Shown here piece after piece: positions 1,280-50,474 of a DNA stretch of 53,046 nt. Both the position numbers and the translations under genes were made by a program. This DNA comes from Octopus sinensis (Eukaryota). Where the stretch lies: positions 1 to 53,046 of the forward strand of contig NW_021833887.1 in assembly GCF_006345805.1 (NCBI RefSeq), written 5' to 3'. The notes under the pieces were generated by a model. That model did not search any database. It had not been told where the DNA came from and saw nothing but the letters and a program-made list of their open reading frames with translations. Position 1 is the first letter of the stretch; every line of letters begins with the position of its first letter.

Positions 1280-1440
1280 GCGTGTGCAATTGGTTTTTGC
1301 ACGGTTTCCCTTTAGAAAATGCCTTTCACAAAGTATTGATCAATCCGAAATTATGGTTGAGACTTGCGTAACACGACGCAAATTAAACTTCAAACCGGGA
1401 CCTAACAGACTTTTTGAACACACAACCATGTCTGCACCTA
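1280..1440 (-). mobile_element. Degenerate head of the tRNA-derived SINE family seen at 17664
   Basis: Reverse complement loosely resembles GGCGCAGG..TGTGTGG..GGTTCCGGGTTCA..GTAGACGGAAAC. Confidence 0.4.
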
Positions 1441-1455
1441 AGGCACCTCTATATA

Positions 1456-1494
<39 letters not shown>

Positions 1495-1635
1495 TATACG
1501 TGCGTAAAGTACATAGAGACATAAACTCTCGTTTCTAAGGAAGAAAACCTTTATAGACCAGACACATTTTAAAGAAGTATTATCCGAACCAGAATTAGAT
1601 TCCCTATGAAAGCTAATCACGCTACTGCATGTATA

Positions 1636-1675
<40 letters not shown>

Positions 1676-1914
1676 ACACACATAGATAGAGTGAGAAATT
1701 TGGGCTGAATCTCCTGTCATTTAATTTATTATTATTATTTTTTATTTCAGAACGATCTCAAAGTAGATAAGAGTATTTTCCTTGTAGATTTTAGAATGAA
1801 ACTTGGCCGAGCGTAACAAATTCCATTGGCCTATATATTGTTAGACATTTTACGCACTTTCTCCTGCTGGCTTCTTTATGCCATTAAAAATGTAAGCATC
1901 TGTCTGCCTCCGCT

Positions 1915-2020
1915 TCTACCACCACAGCCACTACCACCACAGCCACCACCACCACCACCACCCCACCACCACTACCACTAACACCACCACCACCACCACC
2001 ACCGCCACCACCACCACCAT
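1915..2020. repeat. (CCA)n microsatellite
   Basis: Direct reading. Confidence 0.9.
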
Positions 2021-3139
2021 CAAAACGTGTTCATTTACTTTTGCCACCTTTCTCTCTTGCTCTCCCTATCTCTCTGCTTAACCTCTCTGTCAGTGTCTCT
2101 TGTTCTCTTTCTCTGAGCATGTCACTATTTTGATGGAATAAGAGACAGAGGGAGAGAAGAAGGAAAAAGAGGCCGATGAAGAACAACAGAAACGAGAGAG
2201 AGAGAAAAAGAAAAAGATAGACCGATGAAGAACAACGTGTATATATATATATATATACATTGTTCTTAATATTCCCTCAAATAATTATTATTATATACAT
2301 GTATATATATATATTTTGCTAAATTTTTCTTGAGAACATTTCTTAATGGTAAGACCATAGCGGATCTATTTCTAGCATAAGGGTGTCCACATAGTGGTTT
2401 CCCTCTAATATGTATATAATACAATTTTACTGAACCTTCAGGTTTTTCTTATATGCTAGACCACTGGTGTGAAATTGATGTTAATTAAATTAATATCTAA
2501 TTTCTCACCTTCATTTTAAATTTATATATATATATATATATATGTTTCCTTCTTCACTATCTGTTACTCTTTCTTTCCCTCTATGTTGTCTTATGCTCTC
2601 TCTCCCTTCCTGACTCCCCCCTCTCTCTCTCTCTCACTTACTCTTTGATTCTCTAAATTTTGATATCTCCTAGAGTAGTAATAGTAAATATTTTAAAGAA
2701 TTGAATGGAAACACACCAAGAAAGAAGGACAGGAGAGAGAGAGAAGCAGACATGCAGAGACAGACAGTGATATAAACAGACCGAGCATGATGTTTCTTCT
2801 GCCTCCCGTCTCTCCCCCTCCACCTATCGCTGTTTAATTCTGATTGTCCATATTTACTTTGATCCTCTCCAATATAAATACAGAGACAAAGATACAGGGA
2901 GCGGGAATGAGGGAGACAGAAAGAATTAGAAAAGCGAAAAAGGAGGATAAAAAGAGTGAAACAGAGAAAAAAAAAGAGAGACTAAGAGGCGGAGGGAGAG
3001 AGTGGGAATGAGAGAGTGAGTGTTGGTGGGTGTGCTTCACACATACAATAATAAACAAACAGGCTGCAAACTGAAAAAAATAACAATAACAAATAAAATG
3101 GCGACTGTATGAATAGGGTGTTCACTTATTCGTCTTTAG

Positions 3140-3168
3140 CCTATATACATACATACATACATGCATAT

Positions 3169-3205
<37 letters not shown>

Positions 3206-3244
3206 TATTATATATATATATATGTCTGTGCGTGCGTGCATATA

Positions 3245-3291
<47 letters not shown>

Positions 3292-3298
3292 ACATATA

Positions 3299-3345
<47 letters not shown>

Positions 3346-3358
3346 GCGTGCGTGTATG

Positions 3359-3399
<41 letters not shown>

Positions 3400-3535
3400 C
3401 TATATATATATATATTTATATATAACTAACATATATCTGTGTATATGTGTATGTATATATATAATATATATATATATATGTATGCATGTGTATATATTTG
3501 TGTATGTATGTGTATGTACGTATGTTTATATATAA
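3140..3535. repeat. Compound (TA)n/(TG)n microsatellite
   Basis: Direct reading; source of spurious YI-rich ORFs. Confidence 0.9.
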
Positions 3536-3750
3536 AAACTGACGCACACACATACGCACAAACAAACAAACAACAACTAAACAAACAAAAATGATGCAGC
3601 TCTGATAACGGACAGAGTCGACGATTATTGAAAAGGTTACGAGACGCAACGAAAATTTTTGAAAAAATAAATCGAACCGGTGAGTGTGTTAAATAATAAG
3701 GCACTAAAAGAATGACTCTCCCCAGACACAGTAATTTATTTTCGTAACTT

Positions 3751-3914
3751 TCCCAACTGCTTGAGCGAGCAAATGAGTACAAGCTGCATTTATAGATTAT
3801 GAGAAGGCCTTCGATAGCGTCGAAACCAACGCAGTGCTGAACTCGCTGCAGAGGCAGGGAATCGAAGCGCAATATGTGCAGCTGCTCAGAGAGGCAAATT
3901 CCGGATGCACCACC

Positions 3915-3920
<6 letters not shown>
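3751..3920 (+). pseudogene. RTE-clade LINE reverse transcriptase fragment
   Basis: Translates as SQLLERANEYKL / AFIDYEKAFDSVETNAVLNSLQRQGIEAQYVQLLREANSGCTTDI across a frameshift; contains the IDYEKAFDSV RT motif. Confidence 0.8.
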
Positions 3921-3967
<47 letters not shown>

Positions 3968-4174
3968 ATATATATAATCCGATAGAAGGAAACAAGCTGC
4001 TCTTATAGAGATGGAAACATCGTCCAAGTTTCACTGGTTTAACTGGTTTAATACTCTATATAGTAGAAAACAATTTCTAGAATGCAAATGGGTATATATA
4101 CAATATACAAAATATTAAAAGGAAAACAGAAAGTTCAAACTCACATATGTTAATTTATTAACGTAATATTAATA

Positions 4175-4271
4175 ATCCCTACAATTGTTTCGATTCAAAC
4201 TCAAAACTAATAAGAAATTTATAAAAAGTCATATTATGGAAACATTTTGAGTAAACATTTCATCAGAGTAA
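4175..4271 (-). ncRNA. Hammerhead-like motif with extended stem II
   Basis: Minus strand reads CUGAUGA (4266-4260), ACUCAAAA/UUUUGAGU stem, GAAA-CAAUUG-UA. Stem I is degraded. Confidence 0.55.
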
Positions 4272-5188
4272 ATTAGGGCAAAAAATTACATACTAGAAGT
4301 TTGAGATCCTTACAAGACAGAATTGATCAATGTATTTTCTGTATTTAAGTGTGAGCGTCAATAACTTTGAAAAGAAATTAATAAATAAAAACTAATATAA
4401 CGGTTATAAACATATGCTTTCGGTGCGAATGGTTTTGTTATATGGTGCCGTATTTTAAAATCCTGATTGCAATCATTGTGCAATGACTAAGGAAAATAGT
4501 CTAATAACGGGGCATATAAGCCCTCGACTGAAAAAACAAGGCTAAGAATATTAATTTATGTTTCTGCGTGTTAGTGTATCAAAAGAGAAACAATTCGCTA
4601 TGAATCTATGGTGGAACGGTATTTACTTACACTTGTATGCGGTTAAGAACAAAACTTCTCTTGCACAAATATCCTCAACACGTGTTATCCTCAACACGCC
4701 TACATTAAATAGTATTATAAATTATTATTTATTGTTATCTATACTAATGTGGACGTAAGATAATTTAATCAAGAGTTACGTATGTTTACTGTTTCTATCT
4801 AAAAGAAAATAAACTATAAGTTCATGTTAATTCATATGCTTATATATATATATATATATGTCTGTGTATATATACGTTCGAAAAAACATAGAAGAACCGT
4901 AAAATGCAAATTATCCATAATAAAAACTTTCTATATACATTTTGAAAAACCCGTTATTTAATAGTTATAAACTTGTGGCAAATCTGTTTCCATAAATAAA
5001 CTTGTATGATTTATACTCATGTAAGATTTAAAATTAATACAAAAAAAAAACTAATTACTTTTTGTTAAACTGGTTAACAATTAAGTAAAATTACGATCAA
5101 TTTTACGATAAATTTATTTGTATATTACTAAATCATATATTCAAAGATTTTGTTATATATATATAGTATCTATCTATTGATCTATCTA

Positions 5189-5226
<38 letters not shown>

Positions 5227-5635
5227 CGCGCGCGTGTGTATGTAACACAGATGTTAGTTGGACACTACCATTTAAGCGTCGAATTGAATTCAATGCCAAG
5301 CTGTTCGAGATCTTAGCACTGTGAATTCAAACGTGTGTGCGTGTGTATATTTGTGTGTATGTATGTATGTATGTATGTATGTATGTATGTATGTATGCAT
5401 GTATGTATGTATTAATGTATGCATGTATGAATGTATGTATTATGTATGTAATGTGCGTATGTATGTATTATGTATATGTGTGTATGTATGCATGTATGTA
5501 TGTAGATGAGATACGACGGCAAGAATGGGTGTAAGTGTTCGTGCGTGTATGCGCGTGTGTATGTATGTATGTGTGTGAGTGCGTGCGTGTGTGCATGTAT
5601 GTGTGTGTTTGTGTGTGTGTGTGTTTTGTGTGTGT

Positions 5636-5675
<40 letters not shown>

Positions 5676-5949
5676 TGCGTGTGTGTGTGTGTGTGTGCGT
5701 GCGATGTCTGAGTTAGACGATGTGTGTAATATCCACTGTTCGCTTGTCTGAAGCTTACATAATGGATGATCGTATCAGCAGTTATCAAGAGTGTTGCCAT
5801 GTAAACCCGACTGAATTACATGTTCCCTTTTTTATGCTTTTACCACTTGTCTTCCCTCAAAACGCTCGCCATTTGATGGAGACACAAGTGTGAACATTAT
5901 ATATAAATGTGTGTGTGTGTGCGTGTGTGTATGTGAAAACGTGTCTGTG

Positions 5950-5987
<38 letters not shown>

Positions 5988-5993
5988 TAACAA

Positions 5994-6033
<40 letters not shown>

Positions 6034-6276
6034 CATAAAACATATATATATGTATGTATATATACGTGCGTGTGTGTGTGTTTTCGTGAGTGTGTACATA
6101 GATGACACGATGCTTATACATTGATATACCGTCCAACCCGATATCAGCGGCAACATGAGTGATGGTGAGAAAAGAAGCTGTTTAGAACCATCATCATGAT
6201 CAGAAATGGGAAAGGATGAGGAGAGAGGAGAAAGTGAGAGAGAGAGAGATAAAGGGAGGCCAAGAGAAAAGGAGGG

Positions 6277-6457
6277 GAAGAAGAAGAAAAAGAAGAAGAA
6301 GAAGAAGAAGAAGAAAGAAGAAGAAGAAGAGAAGAAGAAGAAGAAGAAGAAGAAGAAGAAGAAGGAAGAAGAAGAAGAAGAAGAAGAAGAAGAAGAAGAA
6401 GAAGAAGAAGAAGAAGAAGAAGAAGAAGAAGAAGAAGAAGAAGAAGAAGAAGAAGAA
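6277..6457. repeat. (GAA)n microsatellite
   Basis: Direct reading; source of poly-E/K/R/L/F ORFs. Confidence 0.95.
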
Positions 6458-6739
6458 AGAGTTCTCTGTCATGAATTCGTTTTGTCGGATAGGGATGGGG
6501 GAATACCAGTAACATTTACATCAAGTTGCTGGCTTTTAGACACACACACACACACATATATATACATACATATATATACACGCATATATACATACATGTG
6601 TGTATATGGACGTATATATAATATATGTATGTATATATGTGTATATATGTGTGTGTGTCTGTTTATGTATGTATGCATATATTGTTTTGTTCTTTTATTC
6701 TATTACATGCTTCAGCCCCAAGGCTGTGGCCATTCTGAA

Positions 6740-8200
6740 TTTTGTATTGTTTTCATATAATTTTTTTCAAGAAAGCGAATGCCAATATTAAATTTATGAT
6801 AAGCAATTTTAAAAGGTTCAGAAAACAACATTTTCAAATACTTATCCTTTGTCTCGCTAATGGACAGCAACATTTTAATTTTCCATGTAATTCTCCCTTT
6901 AAAAAATGCCATGCATTTTGCCGAGTTGAAATGAAGAAAATATATTTTCTGAGAAAGGTCATAGTTTTATAACCGTTGAAAAGATAGAGAGCACAGTGCT
7001 CTTTCAAGCGATAACTGAAGCCATCTCTCTTTCTGCCACCTGCTGTTACTCTTTTAAAGACAATCGTCTTTAAAGGTAAAAGTAAGAGGTTCAAAAACCA
7101 CAACAGACGTATCGTATTTGTAGGCAAAATATTTTATTTGGTTCTCTAAGATGTCAACACTCTATACATGTAGCCTCGTATATCACTGCTTCATTCATTA
7201 TTGATCCAGGATAACACGGTACGCCCAGTTATGAACCATGTCTTTGATAACATAGATCGGCGATCATACGAAGGTTCTGCTCGGGCAGCAGAAACAGCCG
7301 ACAATACTTAGCTTCCCAGAATGCACTTGATTATCACTCGCATTTACATGATCATGCACCGAGGCTGTGTCGTTCTTATTCGGATTTACATACTCGAACC
7401 CATCAGCATGGGACCAATGGACAGGAAAAATTTGAAGATTCCCAATTCTAACAAACGACTCAGACGAGTTGTTTCTCTGCAGGAAATGGCAGAAATGATC
7501 CAGAAAATATGTGGGTCTCGTGTTTGTTGCCAATGAACTTAGCATTCATTCCATGTACAAAGCGGGTGGAGGGGATTCATTTATTACTGAATCTTTAATC
7601 AAATAAACGGGGATAGATGTAGCAGAGAATCTGAAAATGTTCCCAAAACCAAAGAGAAATTATCTCTCGAATACTTAAAACTACAGCACAAGAGAAATTT
7701 CCCCTTTTGGTGATTGTTGTTTGAGTTTTACAACTTAATTATTCTGATACGATATCTTGCGGATGAGAACGTATTTATGCATGAAATGTAAAACCTTCTC
7801 AATGTTGGGAAATAATATTTTTTCTAATAGAAACCCATTTTTAGTTTGGAGTTCGTTAAAGAATCTGAAAATATATTTCTGGGTTGTTTCTTTATGTATT
7901 TTTGTCTTTTGCAAGACAGGCAAAATAAAAGCATTTGTTCAAACAATGCAATTGAAGGCTAGTCTACATTTCAAGTAAGAATGAAGAACCAGTGTGATAT
8001 TTAGTTAGTTTGACTTCTCTTGACATCCACAATCAACATGTATTTGCGATTCATAAGGTTCTTCAAATTTCTCTTCACTAAATAAATACGAGACTATTTT
8101 GGCCTCTAAGTTTCATTCGAAAGTCAATGACCTTAAAAGGGAAACAGCATCGAAAAGAAATCAGAATCTGAAATTCAGATTTGGGTCGTGAACTGCGCAA
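6740..8200 (-). pseudogene. Decayed Penelope-like element (RT C-terminus/linker plus GIY-YIG endonuclease remnant)
   Basis: Minus-strand peptides NEAVIYEATC (~7170-7200), FSYRLKEH (~6990-7022) and KIHKET (~7890) occur in the order expected for Penelope ORFs; many stops and frameshifts. Confidence 0.45.
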
Positions 8201-8267
8201 GTCGAAGATATAAATTCAATTTCTGAATGAACATCAAAATGTACCTTCAATTTTAGGATACGTAATG

Positions 8268-8468
8268 TTTTCATTCAGTCATTGGATTATGGCCATGCTG
8301 GGGTCCCACCTTCAAGTGTTTAGTCAAACAAATCGATACGATTATTTATTTATTAAGTCTGGTACATATTCTATTGGTCTCTTTTGCCCAACAGCTATGC
8401 TAAAGGGACGCTAAAAGACCCAACTCTGGTTGTCGAGCTGTGGGAGGTGCTGGAAATACGGACACAAA
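8268..8468 (-). mobile_element. 3' half of tRNA-derived SINE
   Basis: Reverse complement resembles the tail at 17870-18060 (CCAGCATGGCC..ATGACTGAA). Confidence 0.65.
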
Positions 8469-9163
8469 CACACATGCATATACATACATACACACATATA
8501 TATATGTATATGTATATAGAGTTTCTTTCAAGGCAAATAACACAATATTCTATGTTCTATTCGCAACGACCACATTAAGTTGGAAATCAAAATTACATTA
8601 TGGTATTAATACTGCTTCTGTCGTAATTAATTACGTTTTTTTTTAAGGTATAAGGTATATATTGAGTCTTCAAGAATAAATATTTTATCAATAGCATTAA
8701 GCTATAAGCTGGACATACGATCACGATCACATATCCCTCAGTTTTCAAGGGAAGAACATCTTAAATAATGTAGCTCTAGATACACTGTGCTTGAAAAGAA
8801 AGACTGAATGTTTACGGCTGGAATGCATTTGGTCAAAATTACGTTGGAGTAGAGTCGACCAGCAGCTAAGCTACAACAATAAAAACGAAGCCGTTTCACT
8901 TCACTTGTTGTGAGAGCAAAACAGATAAGAGCGATAACGATTTGTTTGTAAAACACAAGACTAACTGGAAATTGACACATAAATAAACGGTCTGCATTGC
9001 TCATGTTTGATATTATCTCACTGACGTTGAATTTGCAGTTAAGAATTAAAGATTAAAAGATGAGAAAAACTTAGGGCGATGTCAGCGGACCTGTTGAAAA
9101 TTGACGGTTATTTAGAATTAAATTCTGCAACTTCTTCAGAAATGAGTTACAATTAATATTGAT

Positions 9164-9723
9164 ATCAACTTTTGGCACAAAGCCAGCAATTTTGAGGGAG
9201 GGGTTAGTCGATTATATCGATCTCGGTGTTTAACTGGTACTTGATTTGTAGACCCCGGTAGGATGAAAGGCAAATTCAACCTCGGTAGAATTTGAACTCA
9301 GAACGTAAAGACCGACGAAATACCTATTTCTTTACTACCCACAAGGGGCTAAACACAGAGAAGACAAACGGATTAAGTCGATTATATCGACCCCAGTGCG
9401 TAACTGGTACTTATTTAATCGACCCCGAAAGGATGAAAGGCAAAGTCGACCTCGGCGGAATTTGAACTCAGAACGTAACGGCAGACTAAATACCTATTTC
9501 TTTTCTACCCACAAGGAGCTAAACACAGAGGGGACAAACAAGGACAGACACACGGACTAAGTCGATTACATCGACCCCAGTGCGTAACTGGTACTTATAT
9601 AATCAACCCCGAAAGGATGACAGGCAAAGTCGACCTCGGCGGAATTTGAACTCAACGTAACGGCAGACGAAATACGGCTACGCATTTTGCCCAGCGTGCT
9701 AACAGTTCTGCCAACTCGCCGCC
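9164..9723 (-). mobile_element. Triple nested tRNA-derived SINE with Nin/Deu-like central domain
   Basis: Three copies of GAGTTCAAATT (B box)..TTTGCCTTTCATCCT..GGGGT..AAGTACCAG share one A-box head ending at 9723; degenerate outer TSD 9146-9163 / 9727-9744. Confidence 0.85.
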
Positions 9724-9749
9724 TTTGTTACAGTTAATACTAATAAGGA

Positions 9750-10350
9750 GAATGGCGCTTTGTAATGTTCACGCCTATTTTCAACGAATATGGTGATATA
9801 CAACAAATGAAACAGTTGGACCGTATCGCACGATTGATACCCAGGTGAAACTAATCAAACCCTTTGTGTGTAGAAGGGTCTCACCTATGTAATAGGGCGA
9901 ATTGAAGACCTTCTGTGAACTGAGGATATCCGTGTAATTCATATACAAAAACTCTCCCAAGGGTTGTTCAAAATCTGAAAGCAATAAACAAGAGACAAGA
10001 TTCCATTGAGTTTACAAGAACGAAATTGTTTTGTGGGAGCAATGTAAACAATGAAGATTGGTGTGGATCTAGAACTCAAAATTAGCTGGTAAAAGTAATG
10101 TGCTGGAAGTCGACAGTGAGAACTGGAAGTGAATGGCATAAAGGAGAAAGTAAACTGTCAACAAATGAAGTCCATGCAAAGTTGCCCACAATCCTAATGT
10201 CGTTAACAAAAACTAATTTGAATTTAAACACAAAGAAACCTAAGTAAATACCTAAAAGGAATTTTGTCCGACACTCCAGCGATTTTGACAATCGACAGCG
10301 CCTCGAATATTGCTGATGGCATTAGCAATATTTGAAGTGAGTGACTTAGA
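9750..10350 (-). pseudogene. Very degenerate CR1/L2-like RT remnant
   Basis: Peptides KQFRSCKLNGILSLV and DILSSQKVFNSP..LLHTKG weakly echo QYGFRS..STGDLL and LDISKAFD..LLHKL. Confidence 0.3.
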
Positions 10351-11631
10351 GATTGTGATCAGAAATCAAGAGTGATATGTTTCTCCCAGGAAATACAATC
10401 ATAGCTTTTAAAATAATACGAACCTGGTGTTAGCCTTCTTCATTGAAATCTATAATCATAAAAAACTGCAGCTGTACCGATGCTGTCTTTTTTTTCTTTG
10501 TCTTTCAGACACAAGTATATCTAAGACCAAGATTTCCCAGTTCCAGCTCGTTGCCTGTCATTCAGGGAATCGATAAATGAAGTTCTGGTTTTGGGTGTTG
10601 GATTGGTACGTCAGAGCGTTAGAAGGAATCTTTTGCTGTATTTATTCTGGTACTTATTATTCTGAGTTCAAATCCTGCCGTACTCTACTTGAATGCCAAA
10701 ATTAAACTGTCTTTCGGTTTAACACCTCCGACTAGTTCTTCTGTGGCTTTAGTGTAACCCCAACGTTTTTGAAGGCATTAAAACTCTATCTCTGGTTTAA
10801 GGATACCCATTTCTCGTTAACCACGAAAACTCTGTAAAAGATCATGGGTCCTGTCCTTATCTCTTGGCAAAGCGATAAAAAATGCGTCCTTCACTTGTTT
10901 CCAAAACAGTAGAATATGATTTCAGAGATATCTAGTTGCTCTTTCTAGTAAACTAAGAGACCTGACTGAGAGACTCCCTCGAATGGTAGAAATGTTATCG
11001 CGATTCTTTTAAGAGAACTCATAAATACAGTGGCAAATCACCCTTGTACTTTTAGACCAATAAACATTCGCGAACACATCTCATCACGCACATATCATGC
11101 CAGTCAACAGTGCCACACCTGCAGGAATTGGATGGTTTATGTTTTATGTGGAAACAAACAAAATGCCTTGAAACCTTCCTTCCAAAAATCCTGACATTCG
11201 ATTTTAAAAACATATAAAAACCAAAATTAACAAAATAAATCTCGCTGTTAAATTTATTGCGTTAAACGGATATCAATAAAGGAGAATAAAAACAGAACGA
11301 ATCATGTTTGTGTGTGTGTGTATGTGTGTGTGTATGTATGTGTGTGTATGTATGTGTGTGTGTGTCTGTGCGTAAATGTATATGTATGAGTGTGTCAGTA
11401 TAAGAGCTTATGTATGTGTAGGTGTGTATGTGAGCATGTGAACATGTATTTGACCGTGTATGTGTTCGTGTCTGCATGTATATGTGTATATTTGGGACTG
11501 TTTTCGTCTGTGTGTGTGTGTGTGTGTGTGTGTGTAAACGTATGTGTAGGTGGTGTATGTACGGAAGAACGTTCTAGCGTATGTGAACGTGTGTTTGTGT
11601 ATACGGTGCGTCTTTGTTGTGTGTGTGTGTG

Positions 11632-11670
<39 letters not shown>

Positions 11671-12483
11671 GTGTGCGTGTGTGTGTGTTTCGGGGAAGAG
11701 GGCTCCGTGTGTGAGTGCAATATCGTATTTCTTTGATACTTGCTTTATAGCAACACAAAATAATGCGGTGGGTGAGAATGCTGTTGGATGGTGAGGGTCA
11801 CGTTTAGATAGGAAGGGAGGACCGAGGAAGAAGGGGGAGAACATTGCATGTTAACAGAAAGTAAGTGGAACCGAACGATTGGAACTTGTTGTTGTTGTTG
11901 TTGCTATTTTAATGGTTGTGGTAGCGTTGCTGTTATTTTGTCTTAAGTCGGACACACGATCGAGTAAATACGTTCCAGATACGACCTTTTCGCCTTTTAG
12001 TTCTGTCTACGACGGCATTATCTAATGTGTCTTTTCCTTTAAGATATTCGGGTATGATTTTGAGAAAGATTGGCTTACTCTTTCGGGAAGGTTTGCTCGA
12101 CCACGTAAACATCTCCCTTCTCGTTAGCTCGGATTACAATCTTTTATTGACATTTGGGGTCTCTAACTTTGTCTTAAACAGCTGAATGGAGACGATGAAG
12201 AATGATCTGGAGCATAAATATATATATATATCGCTCAAGATTCACTGACCGAGCAGCTTTAGAATTAAACAAACAAAATGGCCACGAATAAATGAACGCT
12301 GAATTTAGCTTCAGGTCAGAACTAGTTGACAAGACTTTTGATCAAAGATACTCCAGTCGTGACCGTCATGTCTAATATTCAAACATAGCTTATGTGGGAA
12401 TATATTATATATTCATATAGGATTTGCTCAACAAGAGCTTCGTTGGTTTCAGGTTTCAATCAGAAGTTTACTGTATTTATACC

Positions 12484-12714
12484 TATTTCTTTACTACCCA
12501 CAAGGGGCCAAACACAGAGAGGACAAACAAAGACAGATAAACGGATTAAGTCGAATACATCGACACCAGTGTGTAACTGGTACTAATTTATCGACCCCGA
12601 AAGGATAAAAGGCAAAGTCGACCTTGGCTGAATTTGAGCTCAGAACGTAACGGCAGACGAAATACGGCTACGCATTTCGCCCGGCGTGCTAACGGTTCTG
12701 CCAGCTCGCCGCCC
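12484..12714 (-). mobile_element. Full-length Nin/Deu-like tRNA SINE with TSD
   Basis: Same family as 9164. TSD TTTACTGTATTTATACC (12467-12483) / TTTACTGTAGTTATGCC (12715-12731). Confidence 0.9.
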
Positions 12715-13493
12715 TTTACTGTAGTTATGCCATTATACCGGAATGGCCAAGGATTACCTATGCAACACGACGTGAGAGCATCAAAATTTTTGCTTCCTTA
12801 CTGACATTTATATCTTCCAAATATCGATCTTAAATTAAAATGCACTGTCCAGGTTCCTCAGACACCTTATTCACTGAAATTACCATTCTTAAACGAAACA
12901 CCTTCTTTGCCAAACCTAGATTTATTAAATTGTGCACCGACGTCGGTGAACATCTTCATAAAGTTGCACGATTATTTATTCAATCATGTATGTTACCGCC
13001 ATTCGATTGAGGCTGGAAATGTATCGATGACGGCATGGGTTTGTCTACAAGTTCAAGACTGGATAAAGCGAGTGGGAGAGAGAGAGAAAGGTCGGCGTAC
13101 TTCAATCTGTCCATTATATTCTGTATTATATCGTCGGGCGTTCTGTACAATCGCTCTTTTCTTATACACTTCCGTAAGTTCTACATCTCATTCTTCATTC
13201 AGTTCAATGTATATATAACAAATATACATATAGACATCTCCCTAAACATACACACCTATACGCTCACTTACAGTCGTGTGTGAGTGTGTGTGAGCGTGTG
13301 TTTGCGTGAGTTCCTCTGTGTGTGTGTGTGTGTGAGCGTGTGTTTGCATGTGTGCCTGTGTGTATGTGTTGTGTTGTCGAAGAGGAAACATTTTGAGGTT
13401 TTTTTCCTATCTAGGATTGTTAACAAAGCAAACCATTCACATTGGCAACCTACACAACGAAAGCCAATGTCTAAATCAACCGTGATCTATATA

Positions 13494-13539
<46 letters not shown>

Positions 13540-13659
13540 CATACGTGCTTGTGTGTGTGAGTGTGTGTGTGAACATATATAAACACACACACATACATAT
13601 ATATATGTATTTGTGCATATATGTGTGTGTGTATGTGTGTGTATATATATATATATACG

Positions 13660-13733
<74 letters not shown>

Positions 13734-13932
13734 GCATGTATGTATATTTATGTGGTCCGCATCAATTTCTCTGAGATAAATAGGAATTACATAACGTGAA
13801 CCTCAGTTGCTTTCAGGTTACGTAACCTCACACCGAATGTCACTCCATGACATTGAACTTCCAAACACCCACATTAATTCACAATCTGTTGGAATCCTTC
13901 TTTCTTTGGGATATCTAGTACACACACACACA

Positions 13933-13974
<42 letters not shown>

Positions 13975-14049
13975 TTATCGGTTAGGTGTCCATAAACCAG
14001 TAAATATGCGCACTCTGAAAGACGGTTATATTTTTCTATTGTCGAGCAG

Positions 14050-14215
14050 TATATTCCTGGTTATAGCATATAATGTGTCAGAAACCATTAGTTTTCGCGT
14101 CTACTATCGCACTTGGCAATATTATTAAATATTCTTCAGACCGCCAAGTGCAATCGATAGTGTACGCGAAACCAATGGTTACCTTTTAGTCCGGTTATAT
14201 ACTCTGACTAGGAAA

Positions 14216-14220
<5 letters not shown>
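14050..14220. repeat. Imperfect fold-back (MITE-like) element
   Basis: Nested inverted segments AACCATT/AATGGTT, TTCGCGT/ACGCGAA, ACTATCG/CGATAGT, CACTTGGC/GCCAAGTG. Confidence 0.75.
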
Positions 14221-14281
<61 letters not shown>

Positions 14282-14335
14282 GAAATATTAAAACTATTAA
14301 GTCTCTCTAAAGGAGATTACGGCAGCGTTACTGGA

Positions 14336-14729
14336 TATTAATAGTTATCGCCATACTAATATGGTAGTCTATAAATATAAGACTAAAGCTGTCGCTGATT
14401 AGCTCCAAGAGGCCATCGCCTCTAGCTAGCTATTTGACATGGATGTATTCCACTGTAACTAGGTAAATAAAATCTTCGAACAGACGGTCAGTAGCGACGG
14501 TCAGTATCAATGACTACGCTGCATTGATAAAGGGCAACAACCCTGAAACATGTCTGCAGATGTCTGACTAGCAAGGTGAAGCGGCTGAACTCCCCTGTTC
14601 GAAGGTTTGTAATGGACGCAGGTTCGTGTGTCAAATAGCTAGCTAGAGCCGATGGCCTCTTGGAGCTAATCAGCGACAGTTTTAGTCTTATATTTATAGA
14701 CTACCATATTAGTATGGCGATAACTATTA

Positions 14730-14732
<3 letters not shown>
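14336..14732. repeat. 104-bp inverted-repeat fold-back element in a (TA)n context
   Basis: 14336-14439 vs 14629-14732 match at 102/104; inner inverted repeat CTTCGAACAG/CTGTTCGAAG. Confidence 0.95.
14519..14559 (+). ncRNA. Minimal type-I hammerhead ribozyme, U3-A8 core variant
   Basis: CUGCA-UUGAUAA-AGGG(CAACAA)CCCU-GAAA-CAUG-UC^UGCAG. Stems I and II are perfect, stem III ACAUGU is palindromic, triplet is GUC. Confidence 0.75.
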
Positions 14733-14778
<46 letters not shown>

Positions 14779-15019
14779 AACGCACACGCACATATGTATA
14801 TATACATGTATATATACATACATACACTTATATATATACATATACATATCTATCTATATATCTATATATATATGTATATATGTATATATATATATGATAT
14901 ATGATGTATAAAAACATGTAATATACAAATAAATGTCTGTAAATATAAAACCATCCGAATTTCTGAGTACCTCATTTCTTCTAATATAAAATACCTGTAC
15001 ATCATCTCCAAACCTTCTA

Positions 15020-15103
<84 letters not shown>

Positions 15104-15183
15104 GTGTGTTTGTGTGTGTGTATGTATGTGTGTGCGTGTGTATGTATGTTTGTATGTATGTATGCACGTATGTATATATATGT

Positions 15184-15733
15184 CAAGTCACCTTCGAGTG
15201 CTACTGGTTTCATGTAACCCAGTACAACCTGTTGCATGGTCGGGTCGTCGGCGACTAAACCGGCAACCCCACCAAGCTTGCTTGGTGAGGAGGGTGTTTA
15301 TTGGACACCCTGCGGGATGAAAAACAAAACCCGTCAAAGGGCGGAGGAACTCTTGAGAGTCAACGGCCACCCAATAAATGTCTTAAGGATGTACCATGCG
15401 CGGGGACATAGAAATAATCGGACTGAATACCCGATCGCGCGGTTAAACCATTGGGAGTGAAGGAATCCTAGCCTTTGTTAGGGCACCCTTCTAGGAGAAG
15501 ATAACTCAAGTAACTGGGATAACTCCGACATAAAACCTGCGGCTCAGTGGTTGCCGATGATGTTGACTTGTTCTTCTTTTCGGATTATGGCTGCTGTTGC
15601 TTAGCGAGTGGGATTGACTCAGTGCACAGCCTTTCCTCACTTTAAAAAAAAATCTTCTTGCACAGGCATTGCACGATAACAACATTGATTAAGCTTCATG
15701 CAATGGCCATACTCGATAACGAGGGGGCAGCCA
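15184..15733 (+). mobile_element. Non-autonomous bipartite RTE-derived element (5'UTR plus 3' tail)
   Basis: RTE-type 5'UTR-like motif TAGGGCACCCTTCTAGGAGAAG..AACTC; last 35 nt match the 3' end of the RTE fragment at 20965-20999 at 34/35. Confidence 0.75.
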
Positions 15734-16083
15734 CCATGTATATATATCCCAATAATCTTGTAAATCTACATTCTAACTCCTCATTACAATCTAATTCCTC
15801 GCTCATTCTTGAATATCTCAACCATCTAATTATATTCGTGTGTATCTGCTTCTATCCATGTGTGTGTGTGTATATGTACGAGTGAGTGTCTGCGGATTTG
15901 TATGAGTGAGTGTATGCGTACGTGTGAATGTACGTATGTATGCAAGGTATATATACCTGCGTATACAGGGGCGATAATACATGCAGATGCACGTATATAT
16001 GGGTGCACATGTGTGCATATACATGCGAGTAAGAGTCTTATGTGTAGATATTGATATGTATAAACATATATATATATATATGT

Positions 16084-16193
<110 letters not shown>

Positions 16194-16899
16194 TATGTAT
16201 ACATCTTCACATATATATTTTCTTATATTACTAAGCACTGACCTGCCAAACCATCTAAATTCCTGAATTCTTCATTCATTACTACTAGCCCCTCTCTCTG
16301 CCCCATCACTTTGGACTCTACCACTATACATTTGTCACTCCTTTACCTTTAATTACCCCCCCCCCATTCTATCTATCTTTTTATACTCTAATACCTTTCT
16401 CTCTCTATCACCCTTTATTTCCCCACCCCTACTTTCAAATTATCTACACTGACCACTAACTGGTATACTTTCCCTTATGAATATCTTTGTTTTGCTCTTT
16501 TCTTTTACTTTCTTTCCTTTATTTCTCTCTTCCTGTTTTTTTAAATTTTATTATTTTTCCTCTTACTTTCTACTCCTTCTCTCTTTTTTTTTTCTTTATT
16601 CCTCTCTTCTTGTTTTCGATTTGGCCCTACTAATACACTCCCTATTTTAGGTCACTTTAAATAAAACCCTTGATTCAGTAGCACTGTGTACAAGCTCTAT
16701 ACTTGGAATGACCAAATTTAAATACTATTGGATTGTACTCATAAAATATTGGAATCTTACATTTATACCATTCTGCCTTATAAAATGGATCTACAAATAC
16801 AATATTCCTACATATCTCACATCAATTTTCTTTCCTCCACCTCACTCTCTATTTTGTATCTTATCTAAATTAACTATTACTTAACCATCCTCTCACAAC

Positions 16900-16947
16900 G
16901 TCTCTGGTGAAGGGTTATAATAAATATCCTGGAAACAGCTGTAAGAC
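16900..16947 (+). ncRNA. Minimal hammerhead motif (A6G variant)
   Basis: GUCU-CUGGUGA-AGGGU..AUCCU-G-GAAA-CAGCUG-UA^AGAC. Confidence 0.65.
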
Positions 16948-17006
16948 ATTCTATCTATAAATGTTCTAAAATCTACTCAGCCCTGGTTTTTTATTTCATT
17001 ACGAAA

Positions 17007-17092
<86 letters not shown>

Positions 17093-17352
17093 TCCCTACT
17101 GGGAATCACCAACTTTAAGAGAATCTTACATTGCTTATAAACTTTACATTTGGATGGACTCATACTAAACTCTGTTGGACTTTTGGATTTTACTCAAAGG
17201 ATATTGGAATATTACACATACATACCATTATGCCTATAAAACGGATTTATGAACTCAACAATACATATCTTACATCTATTTTCTTTCTTCCACCTCACTC
17301 TCTATTTATATCACATCGAAACTAACTATAACATAACTTTTCCTCTCACACC

Positions 17353-17407
17353 GTCTCCGAGGAAGGGATATTATTATTAATTAATATTCTAGAAACAGCT
17401 GTAAGAC
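17353..17407 (+). ncRNA. Minimal hammerhead motif (U4C variant)
   Basis: GUCU-CCGAGGA-AGGGAUAUU..AAUAUUCU-A-GAAA-CAGCUG-UA^AGAC. Confidence 0.6.
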
Positions 17408-17550
17408 CTTCTATCTATAAATGCTCTAATATCTATACAGCCTTGGTTTTTTTTTATCTCATTACGCAAAAAATGCATATATATATAAATATATATATGG
17501 AAAAATAGTGAAGGTAGAAAATGCTAAAATAATTTTATAAAAAAACATTT

Positions 17551-17586
17551 CAGTACCGGTTTCAGTCATTAAGAATTTTTCAACTG
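17551..17586 (-). ncRNA. Minimal hammerhead motif, U3-A8 variant
   Basis: CAG-UUGAAAA-AUUC(UUAAU)GACU-GAAA-CCGG-UA^CUG; one mismatch in stem II. Confidence 0.6.
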
Positions 17587-17663
17587 TAAGTATGGAAAAC
17601 AATTAAATTTTGGAAAAATTAAAAGAAAAGTTTTTTAAAAGAATATTTGCATAGCAGAATATA

Positions 17664-18060
17664 GGCGCAGGAGTGACTGTGTGGTAAGTAGCTTGCTAAC
17701 TAACCACATGGTTCCGGGTTCAGTCCCACTGCGTGGCATCTTGGGCAAGTGTCTTCTGCTATAGCCCCGGGCCGACCAAAGCCTTGTGAGTGGATTTGGT
17801 AGACGGAAACTGAAAGAAGCCTGTCGTATATATGTGTATATATATGTATATATGTATGTGTGTGTATTTGTCTCCCTAGCATTGCTTGACAACCGATGCT
17901 GGTGTATTTACGTCTCCGTCACTTAGCGGTTCGGCAAAAGAGACCGATAGAATAAGTACTTACAAAGAATAAGTCCCGGGGTCGATTTGCTCAACTAAAG
18001 GCGGTGCTCCAGCATGGCCGCAGTGAAATGACTGAAACAAGTAAAAGAGAGAGTAAAAGA
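17664..18060 (+). mobile_element. Full-length tRNA-derived SINE with CTTGGGCAAG core, internal (TA/TG)n and LINE-like tail
   Basis: A/B-box-like head GTGTGGT..GGGTTCAGTCCC; tail GGCGGTGCTCCAGCATGGCC..ATGACTGAAACAAGTAAAAGAG; multiple copies in the window. Confidence 0.9.
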
Positions 18061-18184
18061 GCATTCAAATACAAGGGATTTTCTTTGTTTCTGCCTGTCT
18101 CTATCTCTCTTGCTTACCCTAGTGGGTGCGAGCGAACCCACAAGAGTAAACAAGAGAGACATATATATGAAACTTAGATATGTT

Positions 18185-18882
18185 TCGACCAAGGATTGGT
18201 CTAGGCCATGTCTAACTTAATAGCACCACCTAATAGGATTGTCTAAATCCTTTTTAAGCCGAGTTTTGTGGTATTATGGTCCATTCGAGTAGGGACTTCT
18301 TCTTAAGTGAGTTGTATCCAGGTATAGGTGGCTTATTTGGTATTTTTTTAATCTGTTTTGGGACAATGTTAAACATGGCAGAGCCTGTTGAGGAAAAGAA
18401 GTTGTATCGCAGTGTATTGATGCGTTGTGAAGCTGAATTGGGTTGGGGGCGTATAGCTCGTGTTCGTAGCCTTGGATGAATTTTGAAGCTAATGTTGAGG
18501 CCGTTTGGGTAATGCTGGTGGTATATTCTCCACATCGTGCAAATGATGTACCGCTCGCGGCGGCACTGGAGAGAGTAGAGTTTCAATGTTTAAAGGCGGT
18601 CCCCGTTATCGAGATCAGTCATGTCCTTAATTCGTTTAGTGAATGCCATCTGGGGGTGATACAATTTCCGAGATGTTTTGTTTTGTATGGGAGACCACAG
18701 GGGAAGCGATATTCGAGGTGTGGCCGTACAAAAGAGGAGAAAAGTGGAATGATGACACCTTGTTCTCTGGACCGAAAGGTTCTTGAGATCCAGGAGCTCA
18801 TCCTACGAGCTGTATCGACCTTATTGTTGACGTGGGCACTCCAACTGAGATTGTTATCAACAATTACACTCAGGTCTCTGAT
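18185..18882 (-). pseudogene. CR1/Jockey-like LINE 3' fragment
   Basis: SWISRTFRSREQGVIIPLFSSFVRPHLEY and LYSLQCRRERYII are typical RT C-terminal segments; 3' stem-loop GACCAA/TTGGTC. Confidence 0.8.
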
Positions 18883-18962
18883 TTATATATATATGACAGC
18901 GTGTGTATCGTTGGCGATTTTTTTCGTCCGTCTTCCCTTCCTTAGATCTTTCTTTTTCTTAT

Positions 18963-18997
18963 GTTTCTGACGAAGAGCTCTGCTCGAAACGTTAAAT
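18963..18997 (+). ncRNA. Minimal hammerhead with intact canonical core
   Basis: GUUU-CUGACGA-A-GAGC(UCU)GCUC-GAAA-CG-UU^AAAU, within a TA-flanked repeat at ~18896-19285. Confidence 0.7.
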
Positions 18998-20051
18998 CCT
19001 CCTTCTTTCTTTCCTTTCCTGAGCGTCCACTAGCACTATACTTGTTCCACGTCCTCGCGTTGTTGTGTTTTCTCTTTGTGTTTTCATGTTTGGATTTGCA
19101 AGATTCTTTATATGAGTTCGTGTGTTGAAGCAAATTCTGTTTTGAGTCAAAACTATTGAAAAGGTTGCAAGATGCAACGAAAATTTTAGGAAAATAAAAA
19201 TAAGGAAAAAAAAGTGGAAATTTTACCAGTGAGTGTGTTACATTATAAGGCACAAAAAGCAAATGACTCTCCCCAGACACAACAGTATATATATATATAT
19301 ATATAACATGTAAATATTGATTCGAAGAACCTTGTCGGATAGGAAAATCCGAAGGCCGCCCGTGGGACGTTTTCTATCGCTTGACTCCTTTTCTATTCAA
19401 ATATGTTCTTCAACCCAATGTTCACATGCATTTATTTATAGATTCATGTATGCTTCGTTCCGATGCAGTTCCGAAGTAAATAAGTATAAAGAAATCTGCG
19501 TTCTCTTGAAAGTTTGTAAATGCTTTTGAAGTGAACAATACGCGTGTGGGTGATTGTGATTGTGTGTGTGTGTGTGAGTGAGTGTCTTTATGTATGTACA
19601 TATTGTGAGAGTGTGTTTGGACATTATTCGTGAATGAAAACCAAAATTTACTATGAATGGGATAAAAGTAAAAGATAAACTGGCAATGAGCGGAAATGGA
19701 AGCACCATTATCAAGTAGTTCCATCTTATAATATTTATTTATTCATCTCTGTGGCTGGGTGTTATTCATGAAACTGTAAAAAGGATAGTCCTTTAGTAGA
19801 ATTGTAGGACGGAAAACGAATATTTCGTATGTAATATTATAAAATAGCTATTATGTATAATATATATAATTTGTATTTATTTATCGTTGGAGACGCTTGT
19901 TTGGGACAACACTATCTCTTTTGTACAGACACTTTGTAGCTTTTGTCTGACGGGACTTTTACGTAGCTTTAATAAACTTACAAGATTACATCTTACAAAT
20001 AATGCTTCTTACACAGCGTGATGTTTGTGTGTGTTGATATTTAGCATATGC

Positions 20052-25777: not shown

Positions 25778-25930
25778 AGTGTGTGATAAGAAGCTTACTT
25801 CCCAACCATATGGTCTCGGGTTCATTCCCACTGCGTGGTACCTTAGGCAAGTGTCTTCCACTATAGGCTCGGGCCGACCAAAGCCTTGTGAGTGGACATG
25901 GTAGGCGGAAACTGAAAGAAGCACGTCGTA
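25778..25930 (+). mobile_element. SINE head
   Basis: Matches 17664-17830. Confidence 0.8.
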
Positions 25931-25939
25931 TATATATAC

Positions 25940-27195
25940 GCTTTTTAAAATTTTGGATTTTATTGCGTTTTTAAATTTTGAAATCCATTTTTTTCGAGAA
26001 TTCTATTTTTGAATCAATTTGGAATCTTTTTATTTTTTTTGTTAATTTTAGTTAATTTTTGTTTATTTTTAGATCATTTATTTTCAGATCATTAAATTAT
26101 CAAGTTAAGGAAAACGAGCATTTTCGACGCTTCCTTCCTTTTGCTTTTAATCAAGGTTCTAAGGTCGCAAAAGCTTCTCACGACATTTGTGCTGTGTATG
26201 GAGAGAGTGCCATAGCTGAAAGAACCGCTCCTGATTGGCATGCCAAGTTCAAAAATGGAAATTTTGACCTCAAAGACACACCTCGTTCTGGCCGTCCAGT
26301 TGAGTTCGATGAAGAGCTATTAAACCAACTTTTGCGCTAAAATTCTCGTCGAACAACAAGAGAACTGTCAGAGAAAAGGGAATGCTCCCACACTGCTATA
26401 GAGAAGCATCTTCACTCGATGGGAAAGGTTCAGAAGTATGGAGCATGGGTTCCGCATGCTTTAAGTGACAACAGCAAAAATCAACGAGCCACAATCTCCG
26501 CTGGTTTGCTTGGTCGTCACCGCTCAACTCATGGACACAAGCAACGATTTCTTTACCAAATTGTTATTGGCGACGAAAAATGGTGCCTGTACATCAATAT
26601 GAAGCAGCGTAAGGAATAGCTTAGCCCCGGTAAACAAGCGATACGGCGCGTGAAACAAGATCATCCGCGCAAAACGATGTTGTGCGTATGGTGGGACTGG
26701 GAAGGGATCATCCATTATGAATTGCTTGAACAGAACCAAGCGGTCAATGCGGAACTTTATGTTCAACAGATGGAACGACTCAACACGGCTATTCAAGAGA
26801 AAAGACCTAATCGGCAGCATAGAGCTCTTCTGCTGCACGACAATGCCCGCCCTCATATCGCCAATATGACCAAGGAAGCCATTCAATCGCATGGCTGGGA
26901 AGTGCTGCTACACCCGCCGTACTCTCCTGATTTGGCACCAACGGATTTCCACCTCTTTCGATCTCTTTCAAATGCTATGTGTGGAGTTTCGTTCAATACT
27001 GATGTAGAATTGAGAGCTTGGTTGGATCAATTTTTCGAGTCGAAATCGGGTGATTTCTTACCAACGAGGTATTGAAAATCTTGTTGAACATTAGGAAGAA
27101 GTTTTAAACAACAAGGGTGAATACATTATTGATTAATTAGTTGTTATTTTTTATCAAACCTTTTAAAAAATTTAATTTAAAACATCGGCACGATG
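25940..27195 (+). mobile_element. Mariner transposase pseudogene
   Basis: PRSGRP, WVPHAL, IVIGDEKW, LLHDNARPH, HPPYSPDLAPTDFHLF; internal stops; TIRs incomplete. Confidence 0.92.
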
Positions 27196-27433: not shown

Positions 27434-28673
27434 GAGGGGCGTTCAATAAGTAATGCCCCTGACCCACTTGCATGTGCACTTATTTATACCTCTATAGATT
27501 AAGTGGCGAATTACAGCTCTGAACTAATTGTGGTTTCTGATTTACAGGTGTTTGAACTGAGTCAAGTGTGAAATGGAGCCTGTTGAGTGTCGAGCAGTGA
27601 TCTGGTTTTTGTATTTGAAAGGACGCACACCACGGGAGACTTTTGAAGAAATGAAAGTAACTTATGGTGATGATGCCCCATCATATGACCTTGTAAAACG
27701 CTGGCATTGTGAATTCAAACATAGTCGGAACTCTGTGGAAACAGCTTCCAGATCTGGTCGCCCCCTTCTGCCGTTGATGAGACGTCTGTCCGTCAAGTTG
27801 AGGCTGCCATTTAGGAAGGTCAACGCATAACTATTCGCCAAATAGCCCATAAGGTCAAGATTAGTACCGGGTCTGTGGAAACTATCATTCATGACCATTT
27901 GCATATGCAAAAGGTGTCTGCCAGATGGATTTCCAGGTTGCTCACACCTTTCCAGAAGCAAGAACGCGTTGAGTGCTCGAGGATGAATTTGGAGATGTGC
28001 CAAGAAGATGAGTCAAAATTTTTCAAAAGACTAATCACACAGGATAAAACCTGGGTCCATCACTATGATCCATAGACCAAAGCCCAGTCAATGCAGTGAA
28101 AGCACCGTGACTCACCTCCTCCAAAGAAGGCAAGGGTGCAGCCCTCCGCTGACAAGGTTATGCTCAGTCTTCTGGGACCAGGACGGAGTAGTGATGACAG
28201 ATTTCCTGGCAAAGGGTACCACAAATACAGGAGCCTATTATGCTTCACTTTTGAGGAAATTAAGAGAAGCTATCAAAATCAAGAGGCGGGGCAAGATCAG
28301 CAAAGGCATCCTCCTCCTGCAGGACAACGCTCCGGTCCACAACTCGCGTGTCGCCAAATCAGAAGCACAGGCGTGTAGCTATGAACTCCTCCCCTTGCAC
28401 CCTCTGATTTTCACCTCTTCCCAGCCATGAAGTTGATTTTGAAAGGAAAGCGTTTACCAGATGATGCAGCCTTGATTTCTGAAGTCACGTCGTGGTTGGA
28501 GGACCAAGCTGGGGTCTTCTACAAAAACGGTATCCAGAGTTGTATCAAACGATGGGAGAAATGCATAACTCTGGGTAGTTCCTATGTAGGAAAAGACTAA
28601 TAACTGTGCCGAGTGTCGTTGCTCTACTGCTATGGGAAGTGGGTCAGGGGCATTACTTATTGAACGTCCCTCG
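27433..28673 (+). mobile_element. Mariner (Himar1/irritans-like) with TIRs and TA TSD; pseudogene
   Basis: TIR CGAGGGGCGTTCAATAAGTAATGCCCCTGACCCACTT at both ends; MEPVECRAVI (27573), SARWISRLL, LLQDNAPVH; frameshifts. Confidence 0.95.
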
Positions 28674-49042: not shown

Positions 49043-49380
49043 CTCAACAGGTAATTTTTACACGCTAGAAGAAGTAGTCAAAACGACCAGAACCACATTT
49101 AAGAGCAATTTTCGAAGGGAATGAAAAATAAAAACCTTTATCTTGTTATTTTTTACGGTTATACCTAGGTTTCAGATTTCTTTAGCAAATAAAATAATTT
49201 TCTAGGCGAATCCTCATCACTAACCGTACCATAACATTAAAATATAATTTAGAGACAAATAACACGTGTTTCATCATTATAATTTTTCAAAATTCACCGC
49301 GCAAGCGCAGTTTTGGTCGGCAGTAATTGAAAAATGCCGAATCGATCTTCGAAATGCTAAAATCATATTCGGTGAATTTG

Positions 49381-50313: not shown

Positions 50314-50320
50314 TATATAT

Positions 50321-50474
50321 ACGACGGGCTCCTTTCACTTTCCGTCTACCAAATCCACTCACAAGACTTTGCTCGGCTCGATGATAGAGTAGAAGACACT
50401 TGCCCAAGGTGCCTCACAGTGGGACTGAGCCAGGAACCATGTGGTTGGGAAGCAAACTTCTAACCACACAACCA
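50321..50474 (-). mobile_element. SINE head
   Basis: Reverse complement of the 17664 head. Confidence 0.85.

What the first reader, a model, noticed from the sequence alone, without database searches (positions are those of the whole stretch)
16620..17473. Tandem hammerhead pair with cleavage sites 460 nt apart
Seen: two clearly diverged units share an identical GAAACAGCTGTAAGAC and GTCT stem I, while stem II changes length but keeps pairing. Predicted cleavage is after 16943 and 17403. Each core has a different single defect (A6G, U4C), so the consensus is CUGANGA. Inference: this is the arrangement needed for dimeric cleavage and release of a retrozyme-size monomer or circle; these copies are probably inactive.
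Basis: partly seen in the sequence, partly recalled or inferred. Interest (0 to 1): 0.7.

Follow-up and report, generated by a model that had tools for sequence, protein, structure and literature searches.

The report
Two decayed hammerhead-tailed jumping-gene fragments
The two self-cutting RNA motifs are real, but each sits at the end of a differently shortened, decayed copy of a very abundant repeat, likely a Penelope-like jumping gene, so the 460-base spacing is likely accidental; the one twist is that most relatives carry the supposedly defective core letter.

Summary
Both minimal type I hammerheads are real: cores at 16904 and 17357, predicted cuts after 16943 and 17403, and a double-hammerhead-like fold is the predicted minimum. 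They are not a retrozyme dimer. Each ends a separate copy (about 800 and 385 nt) of a high-copy repeat: 4319 and 3443 contigs were laid in two DNA-type runs, depth falls toward the 5' end, and (TA)n lies at all three junctions. TRF finds no 460-nt period, the interval folds only through its (TA)n, and the ribozyme is no better conserved than its flanks. A6G is private (98% of depth has A), but U4C is the family majority (80-83% in three runs, 54% in the fourth), so the consensus is not CUGANGA. Both copies also have an extra purine before GAAA. Ribozyme shape, 3' position and (TA)n flanks match Hydra-clade Penelope-like elements, but no linked RT/endonuclease ORF was found, so membership is unproven. 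The scan noted a similar case in another genome. Ordinary locus; the high-copy U4C core is a modest, testable variant.

The parts
16054..16201 (.). (TA)n-rich microsatellite at the 5' junction of copy 1
   Evidence: TRF; junction print
16205..17010 (+). Copy 1: about 800-nt 3' fragment of a high-copy repeat family, likely 5'-truncated; no detectable coding remnant
   Evidence: 4319/3443/810/77 contigs laid, all 30 bins covered in X2, X4 and X9; 5' limit is the edge of the laid stretch, next to (TA)n; Pfam and phmmer found nothing real
16540..16615 (+). Pyrimidine-rich low-complexity expansion that related copies lack
   Evidence: joint 16539->16645 with 29 letters between in X2 and X4; depth trough 16556-16609
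16900..16947 (+). Hammerhead 1 (minimal type I): U4, private A6G, private change at 16915 in stem II, extra G before GAAA, palindromic helix III; predicted cut after 16943
17012..17092 (.). (TA)n, 41.5 copies, between the two copies
17093..17476 (+). Copy 2: about 385-nt 3' fragment of the same family; first ~80 nt only 58% like copy 1, rest 84%
   Evidence: nhmmer 17089-17475
17353..17407 (+). Hammerhead 2: C4 (family-majority letter), 9-bp stem II with three G.U pairs, extra A before GAAA, same palindromic helix III; predicted cut after 17403
17477..17498 (.). Short (TA)n at the 3' junction of copy 2

Best explanation
The locus is two decayed fragments of unequal length from one very abundant repeat family, likely the 5'-truncated 3' ends of a Penelope-like retroelement (or its non-autonomous derivative) that likely inserted one after the other into the same (TA)n tract. 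Shown: both motifs, the family's abundance, unequal lengths, (TA)n at every junction, the depth decline toward the 5' end, and the majority letters of the core. Inferred: target-primed reverse transcription from the 3' end by a Penelope-type RT and GIY-YIG endonuclease with (TA)n preference gave copies of variable 5' length, each ending about 65-70 nt past the hammerhead cut. In the source RNA the ribozyme would cleave weakly, as a dimer through the 8-nt palindrome and perhaps with protein help; copying probably did not need efficient cleavage, which would let a C4 core spread. The T at position 4 of copy 1 may be a CpG-deamination product of an ancestral C. The 460-nt spacing is the length of copy 2 plus the microsatellite, not a replicating unit. 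Copy 1 (A6G) is predicted inactive; copy 2 has the family-majority core.
For: High copy: 4319 (X2) and 3443 (X4) contigs laid on copy 1 at 80% likeness or more; summed depth about 1,000-20,000 in most bins at 16205-16555 and 70,000-690,000 at 16799-16987. Loose ends behind 16992-16996 end in an A-run, a T-run and TA. (TA)n at all three junctions. Uneven divergence: 5' 80 nt of copy 2 58% against 84% for the rest (Fisher P 6e-6, boundary chosen after looking). At 18 listed positions where related contigs differ from copy 1, copy 2 has the contigs' letter at 11, copy 1's letter at 4, another at 1, a gap at 2. Hydra-clade PLEs: 26 of 27 listed families prefer (TA)n; 15 of 26 listed ribozyme rows have an unpaired base on both sides of stem II; 3 of 26 have the same helix III arms and cut base as ours (PMC8557442 files S1/S2). 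Hammerhead catalytic mutants did not affect insertion by a Poseidon PLE in vitro (PMC11167929 passages).
Against: No RT or GIY-YIG ORF is linked: Pfam on 9 readings of the two copies gave only two sub-threshold hits, the three phmmer hits were unrelated repetitive proteins, and codon-position bias was not significant (best P 0.22). The family is not Hydra-1_Obim (different ribozyme), and two of three family words were absent from that supplement, the third matched only a spider Naiad. Uniform independent targeting predicts only about 0.3-100 same-tract pairs for 1,000-20,000 copies in an assumed 2.5-Gb genome, so one partial-tandem event stays plausible. Three positions (16746, 16760, 16781) share a minority letter between the copies. 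Contig depth is no copy number and also depends on the 80% cut-off; the runs may be from related species (best word share 0.40); 118 variant rows and 29 joints were not shown; no whole genome was available.
Confidence: 0.58

Rival explanations
1. One insertion: a Penelope-type partial tandem (pseudo-LTR arrangement) copied in a single event, with the central (TA)n grown from the element's AT-rich end or carried along from the source locus.
For: Partial tandems are the normal PLE arrangement (PMC8557442, PMC11167929 passages); same orientation; three shared minority letters; chance pairs under uniform targeting may be few.
Against: Co-inserted copies should diverge evenly, but the 5' 80 nt are at 58% against 84%; the longer copy is upstream, whereas the described pattern puts the truncated copy first; 80 nt of (TA)n lie between.
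Confidence: 0.24
2. A non-LTR retrozyme dimer: tandem units whose ribozymes cut out a 460-nt monomer that circularises.
For: Two same-strand hammerheads that co-fold as a dimer; spacing near the published 150-450 bp range (PMC7229834); low GC; retrozymes are proposed to derive from PLE pseudo-LTRs (10.64898/2026.07.22.740005).
Against: No TRF period near 460 with three parameter sets, including the preprint's; units of about 800 and 385 nt; monomer fold z -5.1 with the (TA)n but +0.3 without it; minimal, non-canonical core; none of 15 listed joints is head-to-tail (weak: 29 hidden, only copy 1 laid).
Confidence: 0.1
3. A hammerhead-bearing SINE-like or other non-Penelope retroelement, or a local duplication of one old copy.
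For: No PLE ORF found; depth peaks on the last ~200 nt, as for a short element.
Against: The family extends at least 800 nt; ribozyme architecture and (TA)n flanks match PLE lists; copy 2 mostly has the family letter where copy 1 is derived, unlike a late duplication.
Confidence: 0.08

Closest known systems
Hammerheads of Hydra-clade Penelope-like elements (Craig et al. 2021, PMC8557442; e.g. Penelope-1_NV, Penelope-1_SK, Hydra-1_aMil)
   Same: Sense-strand type I hammerhead near the 3' end; same helix III arms and A cut base; unpaired bases flanking stem II are common; (TA)n flanks; 5' truncation.
   Different: Majority C at core position 4 (0 of 34 rows in file S2 have it, but the search descriptor required U); purine.purine rather than U.U at the base of stem II; no helix III loop; at least 800 nt with no detectable endonuclease C-terminus; no ORF linked; not Hydra-1_Obim.
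Minimal hammerheads (min-HHR) in PLE pseudo-LTRs (Cervera and De la Pena 2014, PMC4209133)
   Same: Short helix I (4 bp), long helix II, extra base after A9, palindromic helix III that needs a dimer; mostly solo, variable copies from truncated elements.
   Different: No G10.1-C11.1 pair next to G12; C4 majority (0 of 56 motifs in Fig. S3 have C4; one of 56 has an extra A before GAAA).
Animal non-LTR retrozymes (Cervera and De la Pena 2020, PMC7229834; Li et al. 2026 preprint 10.64898/2026.07.22.740005)
   Same: Neighbouring same-strand type I hammerheads a few hundred nt apart, non-coding, low GC.
   Different: No fixed-period tandem, unequal units, microsatellite spacer, no self-paired monomer, cores not canonical; circles not shown.

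Membership tests
Type I minimal hammerhead | Three-helix topology with GAAA and NUH cut site | tested here: met
Type I minimal hammerhead | Canonical CUGANGA core | tested here: not met
   copy 1 A6G, copy 2 C4; family majority C4 in 4 of 4 runs
Type I minimal hammerhead | G10.1-C11.1 pair adjoining the core | tested here: not met
   extra purine before G12 in both copies; family state at that position not among the rows shown
Type I minimal hammerhead | Palindromic helix III allowing a dimer | tested here: met
   8-nt palindrome, co-fold
Type I minimal hammerhead | Self-cleavage | not testable with these tools
   needs an assay
Penelope-like element (Hydra clade) | RT plus C-terminal GIY-YIG ORF, with the clade's C-terminal CxxC and CxH motifs | tested here: inconclusive
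Penelope-like element (Hydra clade) | Hammerhead near the 3' end, sense strand | tested here: met
   cut about 65-70 nt from the 3' end in both copies
Penelope-like element (Hydra clade) | (TA)n insertion preference | tested here: met
   3 of 3 junctions here; loose ends run into TA; not counted genome-wide
Penelope-like element (Hydra clade) | Frequent 5' truncation, high copy number | tested here: met
   unequal copies, depth gradient, thousands of contigs; gradient partly confounded by the likeness cut-off
Penelope-like element (Hydra clade) | Pseudo-LTR/partial tandem with 30-40-bp tail | tested here: inconclusive
   two copies in tandem but separated by (TA)n; tail not resolvable
Animal non-LTR retrozyme | Head-to-tail tandem of fixed unit, detected by TRF | tested here: not met
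Animal non-LTR retrozyme | Two consecutive units with complete hammerheads | tested here: not met
Animal non-LTR retrozyme | Highly self-paired monomer | tested here: not met
   z +0.3 without the microsatellite
Animal non-LTR retrozyme | Abundant linear and circular monomer RNA | not testable with these tools
   only contigs were available

The most novel reading that the evidence does not exclude
A Penelope-type family amplified to thousands of copies across several related species with a C4 hammerhead core and a purine.purine base to stem II as its normal state. Either this variant cleaves well enough as a dimer or with the element's protein, or the ribozyme fold was kept for a non-catalytic job. 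Such families are invisible to descriptor searches that require CUGANGA, so animal hammerhead counts would be underestimates.
Probability: 0.55. Interest if true: 0.45.

Novelty: new variant of a known kind. Interest (0 to 1): 0.3.

Why it matters
As a locus it is ordinary transposon debris. The useful part is the family-wide C4 core. The role of hammerheads in Penelope-like elements is open: their cleavage is weak in vitro (PMC4209133) and was dispensable for insertion in the one reconstituted system (PMC11167929). A successful high-copy family with a core change known to lower activity (PMC3088659, viroid U4C) is a natural test of whether cleavage matters for spread. It also shows that strict CUGANGA descriptors would miss whole families.

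Tried and rejected
Rfam: no match at gathering score in the window, no hammerhead family among 28 weak matches at 15500-18500. My early idea of a GIY-YIG coding remnant (by-eye likeness of a short stretch near 16740-16780 to Nematis/Poseidon endonuclease ends) was dropped: Pfam blank, phmmer's 3 hits spurious, codon bias not significant, shared in-frame stop in both copies. No structure or language-model search of that reading was obtained, so remote likeness stays untested. Collection scans: full motif 0 hits in metagenomes; 17 short-word hits were all chance, none with a core upstream. No third copy in the window. No whole genome. Expression: no RNA holder listed; two runs guessed to be RNA hold family contigs (810 and 77) but may be DNA, and contigs cannot show ends, strand or circles, so this counts neither way. 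Selective conservation of the 16-mer rejected. Literature: the 16-mer occurs in 0 papers of the library; searches on hammerhead with Penelope, octopus, cephalopod and U4C listed no paper on this family or on a high-copy C4 PLE core; Repbase, Dfam, subscription papers and bioRxiv supplements could not be seen and may hold the family. The window's RT ORF homologues did not reveal the taxon.

Full report
Observation. The window is microsatellite- and transposon-rich animal DNA; it looks octopus-like from a SINE I recognise at about 17665-18040, which is recall and untested. A hammerhead descriptor allowing one mismatch in CUGANGA found 5 distinct cores against a shuffle mean of 0.37; a stricter version found 4 against mean 0.13, max 1 in 100 shuffles. 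Helix III is an 8-nt palindrome; co-folding the two motifs gives a double-hammerhead-like minimum (-26.4 kcal/mol). Each monomer folds no better than shuffles (z -0.07 and 0.41), and Rfam sees neither.

Both copies have an extra purine between stem II and G12, so there is no G10.1-C11.1 pair next to the core. The shared 16-mer is expected by chance at this identity (P 0.75-0.98), and the ribozyme (48 of 57) is no more alike than the middle (138 of 167) or the tail (51 of 58): no sign of selection since the copies parted. An 80-nt (TA)n lies between them, and (TA)n also flanks both outer ends.

The family. No genome was held, so I laid contigs of 4 of the 24 listed public runs on copy 1 only (16205-17003, 80% likeness). 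4319, 3443, 810 and 77 contigs were laid (X2, X4 guessed DNA of organisms A and B; X9, X19 guessed RNA). Homology covers the whole 800 nt; related copies join 16539 to 16645 with 29 letters between, so the window has a private low-complexity expansion. Summed depth rises from about 1,000-20,000 in most 5' bins to 70,000-690,000 at 16799-16987. Depth is not copy number, but thousands of contigs mean a high-copy family, and the gradient fits 5' truncation. Loose ends behind 16992-16996 run into an A-run, a T-run and TA. At 16907, A has 97.8, 98.8, 98.7 and 100% of depth: A6G is private. At 16905, C has 80.5, 83.0, 79.9 and 53.9%: the family-majority core has C at position 4, as in copy 2. C4-G5 is a CpG and CpG is depleted in the copies (3 against 14.8 expected in copy 1, 5 against 8.5 in copy 2), so the minority T may be deamination; the matching G5->A count was among 118 rows not shown, so this is untested. 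None of the 15 listed joints is head-to-tail, but 29 were hidden and unitigs would break at (TA)n, so this is weak.

Retrozyme test. TRF reports no period near 460 under three parameter sets, one taken from the retrozyme preprint. The 460-nt interval folds as a circle at z -5.1 only because of its (TA)n; the part without it scores +0.3. The units are about 800 and 385 nt. The 5' 80 nt of copy 2 are 58% like copy 1 against 84% elsewhere (P 6e-6, boundary chosen after looking), and at 18 listed positions where related contigs differ from copy 1, copy 2 has the contigs' letter at 11, copy 1's at 4 (one of these is in fact the majority), another at 1 and a gap at 2. This fits separate origins better than one dimer, though three shared minority letters point the other way. 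Uniform (TA)n targeting would give about 0.3, 6 or 100 same-tract pairs for 1,000, 5,000 or 20,000 copies in an assumed 2.5-Gb genome, so serial insertion is possible but a single partial-tandem event is not excluded.

Coding test. I first suspected an endonuclease remnant. Pfam gave nothing real for the copies; phmmer over 1.84 billion representatives gave 3 hits, all unrelated repetitive proteins; codon-position bias was not significant. I dropped the idea. Collection scans gave 0 hits for the full motif and 17 chance word matches.

Comparison with what is known. PMC4209133 (parts 1-2 of 4 of the main text and parts 1-2 of 3 of the supplement read) describes minimal hammerheads in PLE pseudo-LTRs: short helix I, long helix II, extra base after A9, palindromic helix III, mostly solo copies, low dimer activity. 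All 56 listed motifs have U4; one has an extra A before GAAA. PMC8557442 (passages and supplement parts 2 and 59 plus search hits) lists Hydra-clade PLEs: 26 of 27 families prefer (TA)n, 15 of 26 ribozyme rows have unpaired bases on both sides of stem II, and 3 have our helix III arms and cut base. All 34 rows have U4, but the descriptor required it. The octopus Hydra family listed there has a different ribozyme. PMC11167929 (passages) found that catalytic mutants did not affect insertion in vitro and that cleavage needed the protein. PMC3088659 (section 8 and passages) notes a viroid U4C variant with much lower in vitro activity that stays infectious. PMC7229834 (passages) and the 2026 preprint (parts 1-2 of 5) define retrozymes as fixed tandem repeats expressed as circles and link them to PLE pseudo-LTRs. 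PMC13282606 (part 1 of 3) reports many Penelope-like families in one octopus; its supplement was listed, not read.

Verdict. Works like the hammerhead-bearing 3' end of a Penelope-like element, closest to the Hydra clade; membership is unproven without an ORF. It fails the retrozyme tests that could be run. Best reading: two decayed truncated copies in one (TA)n tract (0.58); one partial tandem (0.24); retrozyme dimer (0.10); other (0.08). Cleavage, expression and circles were not tested. The family-majority C4 core makes it a new variant of a known kind; I found no report of it in the searches named, but repeat databases and closed papers were out of reach. Interest 0.3.

Noticed in passing
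window 18963-18995 (+): A third hammerhead of a different repeat family with an intact CUGACGA core, extra A after A9, G-C closed 4-bp stem II and loop-less palindromic helix III: a textbook minimal PLE hammerhead, single, abutting a minus-strand LINE fragment.
   Followed up: partly
window 14336-14732: MITE-like element with 104-bp terminal inverted repeats at 98% identity, lying between (TA)n tracts.
   Followed up: partly
window 32354-35812 (-): Nearly intact non-LTR retrotransposon: 744-aa open RT frame (homologues carry PF00078, up to 68% identity, 1665 hits) with open frames upstream; R4/Dong-like by recall.
   Followed up: partly
window 27731-28410 and 51195-51873: Two mariner-type transposase remnants in opposite orientation, 93-94% complementary, 23 kb apart; more Tc1/mariner-like remnants near 26056-27075, 43198-44126 and 49554-49982 (family names by recall).
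   Followed up: no
window 17665-18040: SINE-like repeat just downstream of copy 2, with related copies near 25780-25948 and 50302-50470; recalled as an octopus tRNA-derived SINE, not tested.
   Followed up: no
window 18190-18900 (-): Decayed 3' part of a LINE reverse transcriptase, recognised by eye in the minus-strand translations; no Pfam hit.
   Followed up: no
window 49160-49224 (-): Hammerhead-like match with C3G core, long stem II region and palindromic helix III; single and compatible with chance.
   Followed up: partly
window 16992-17010 and related contigs: Related copies end in an A-run followed by a T-run before the TA repeat, a small palindrome at the 3' terminus.
   Followed up: no
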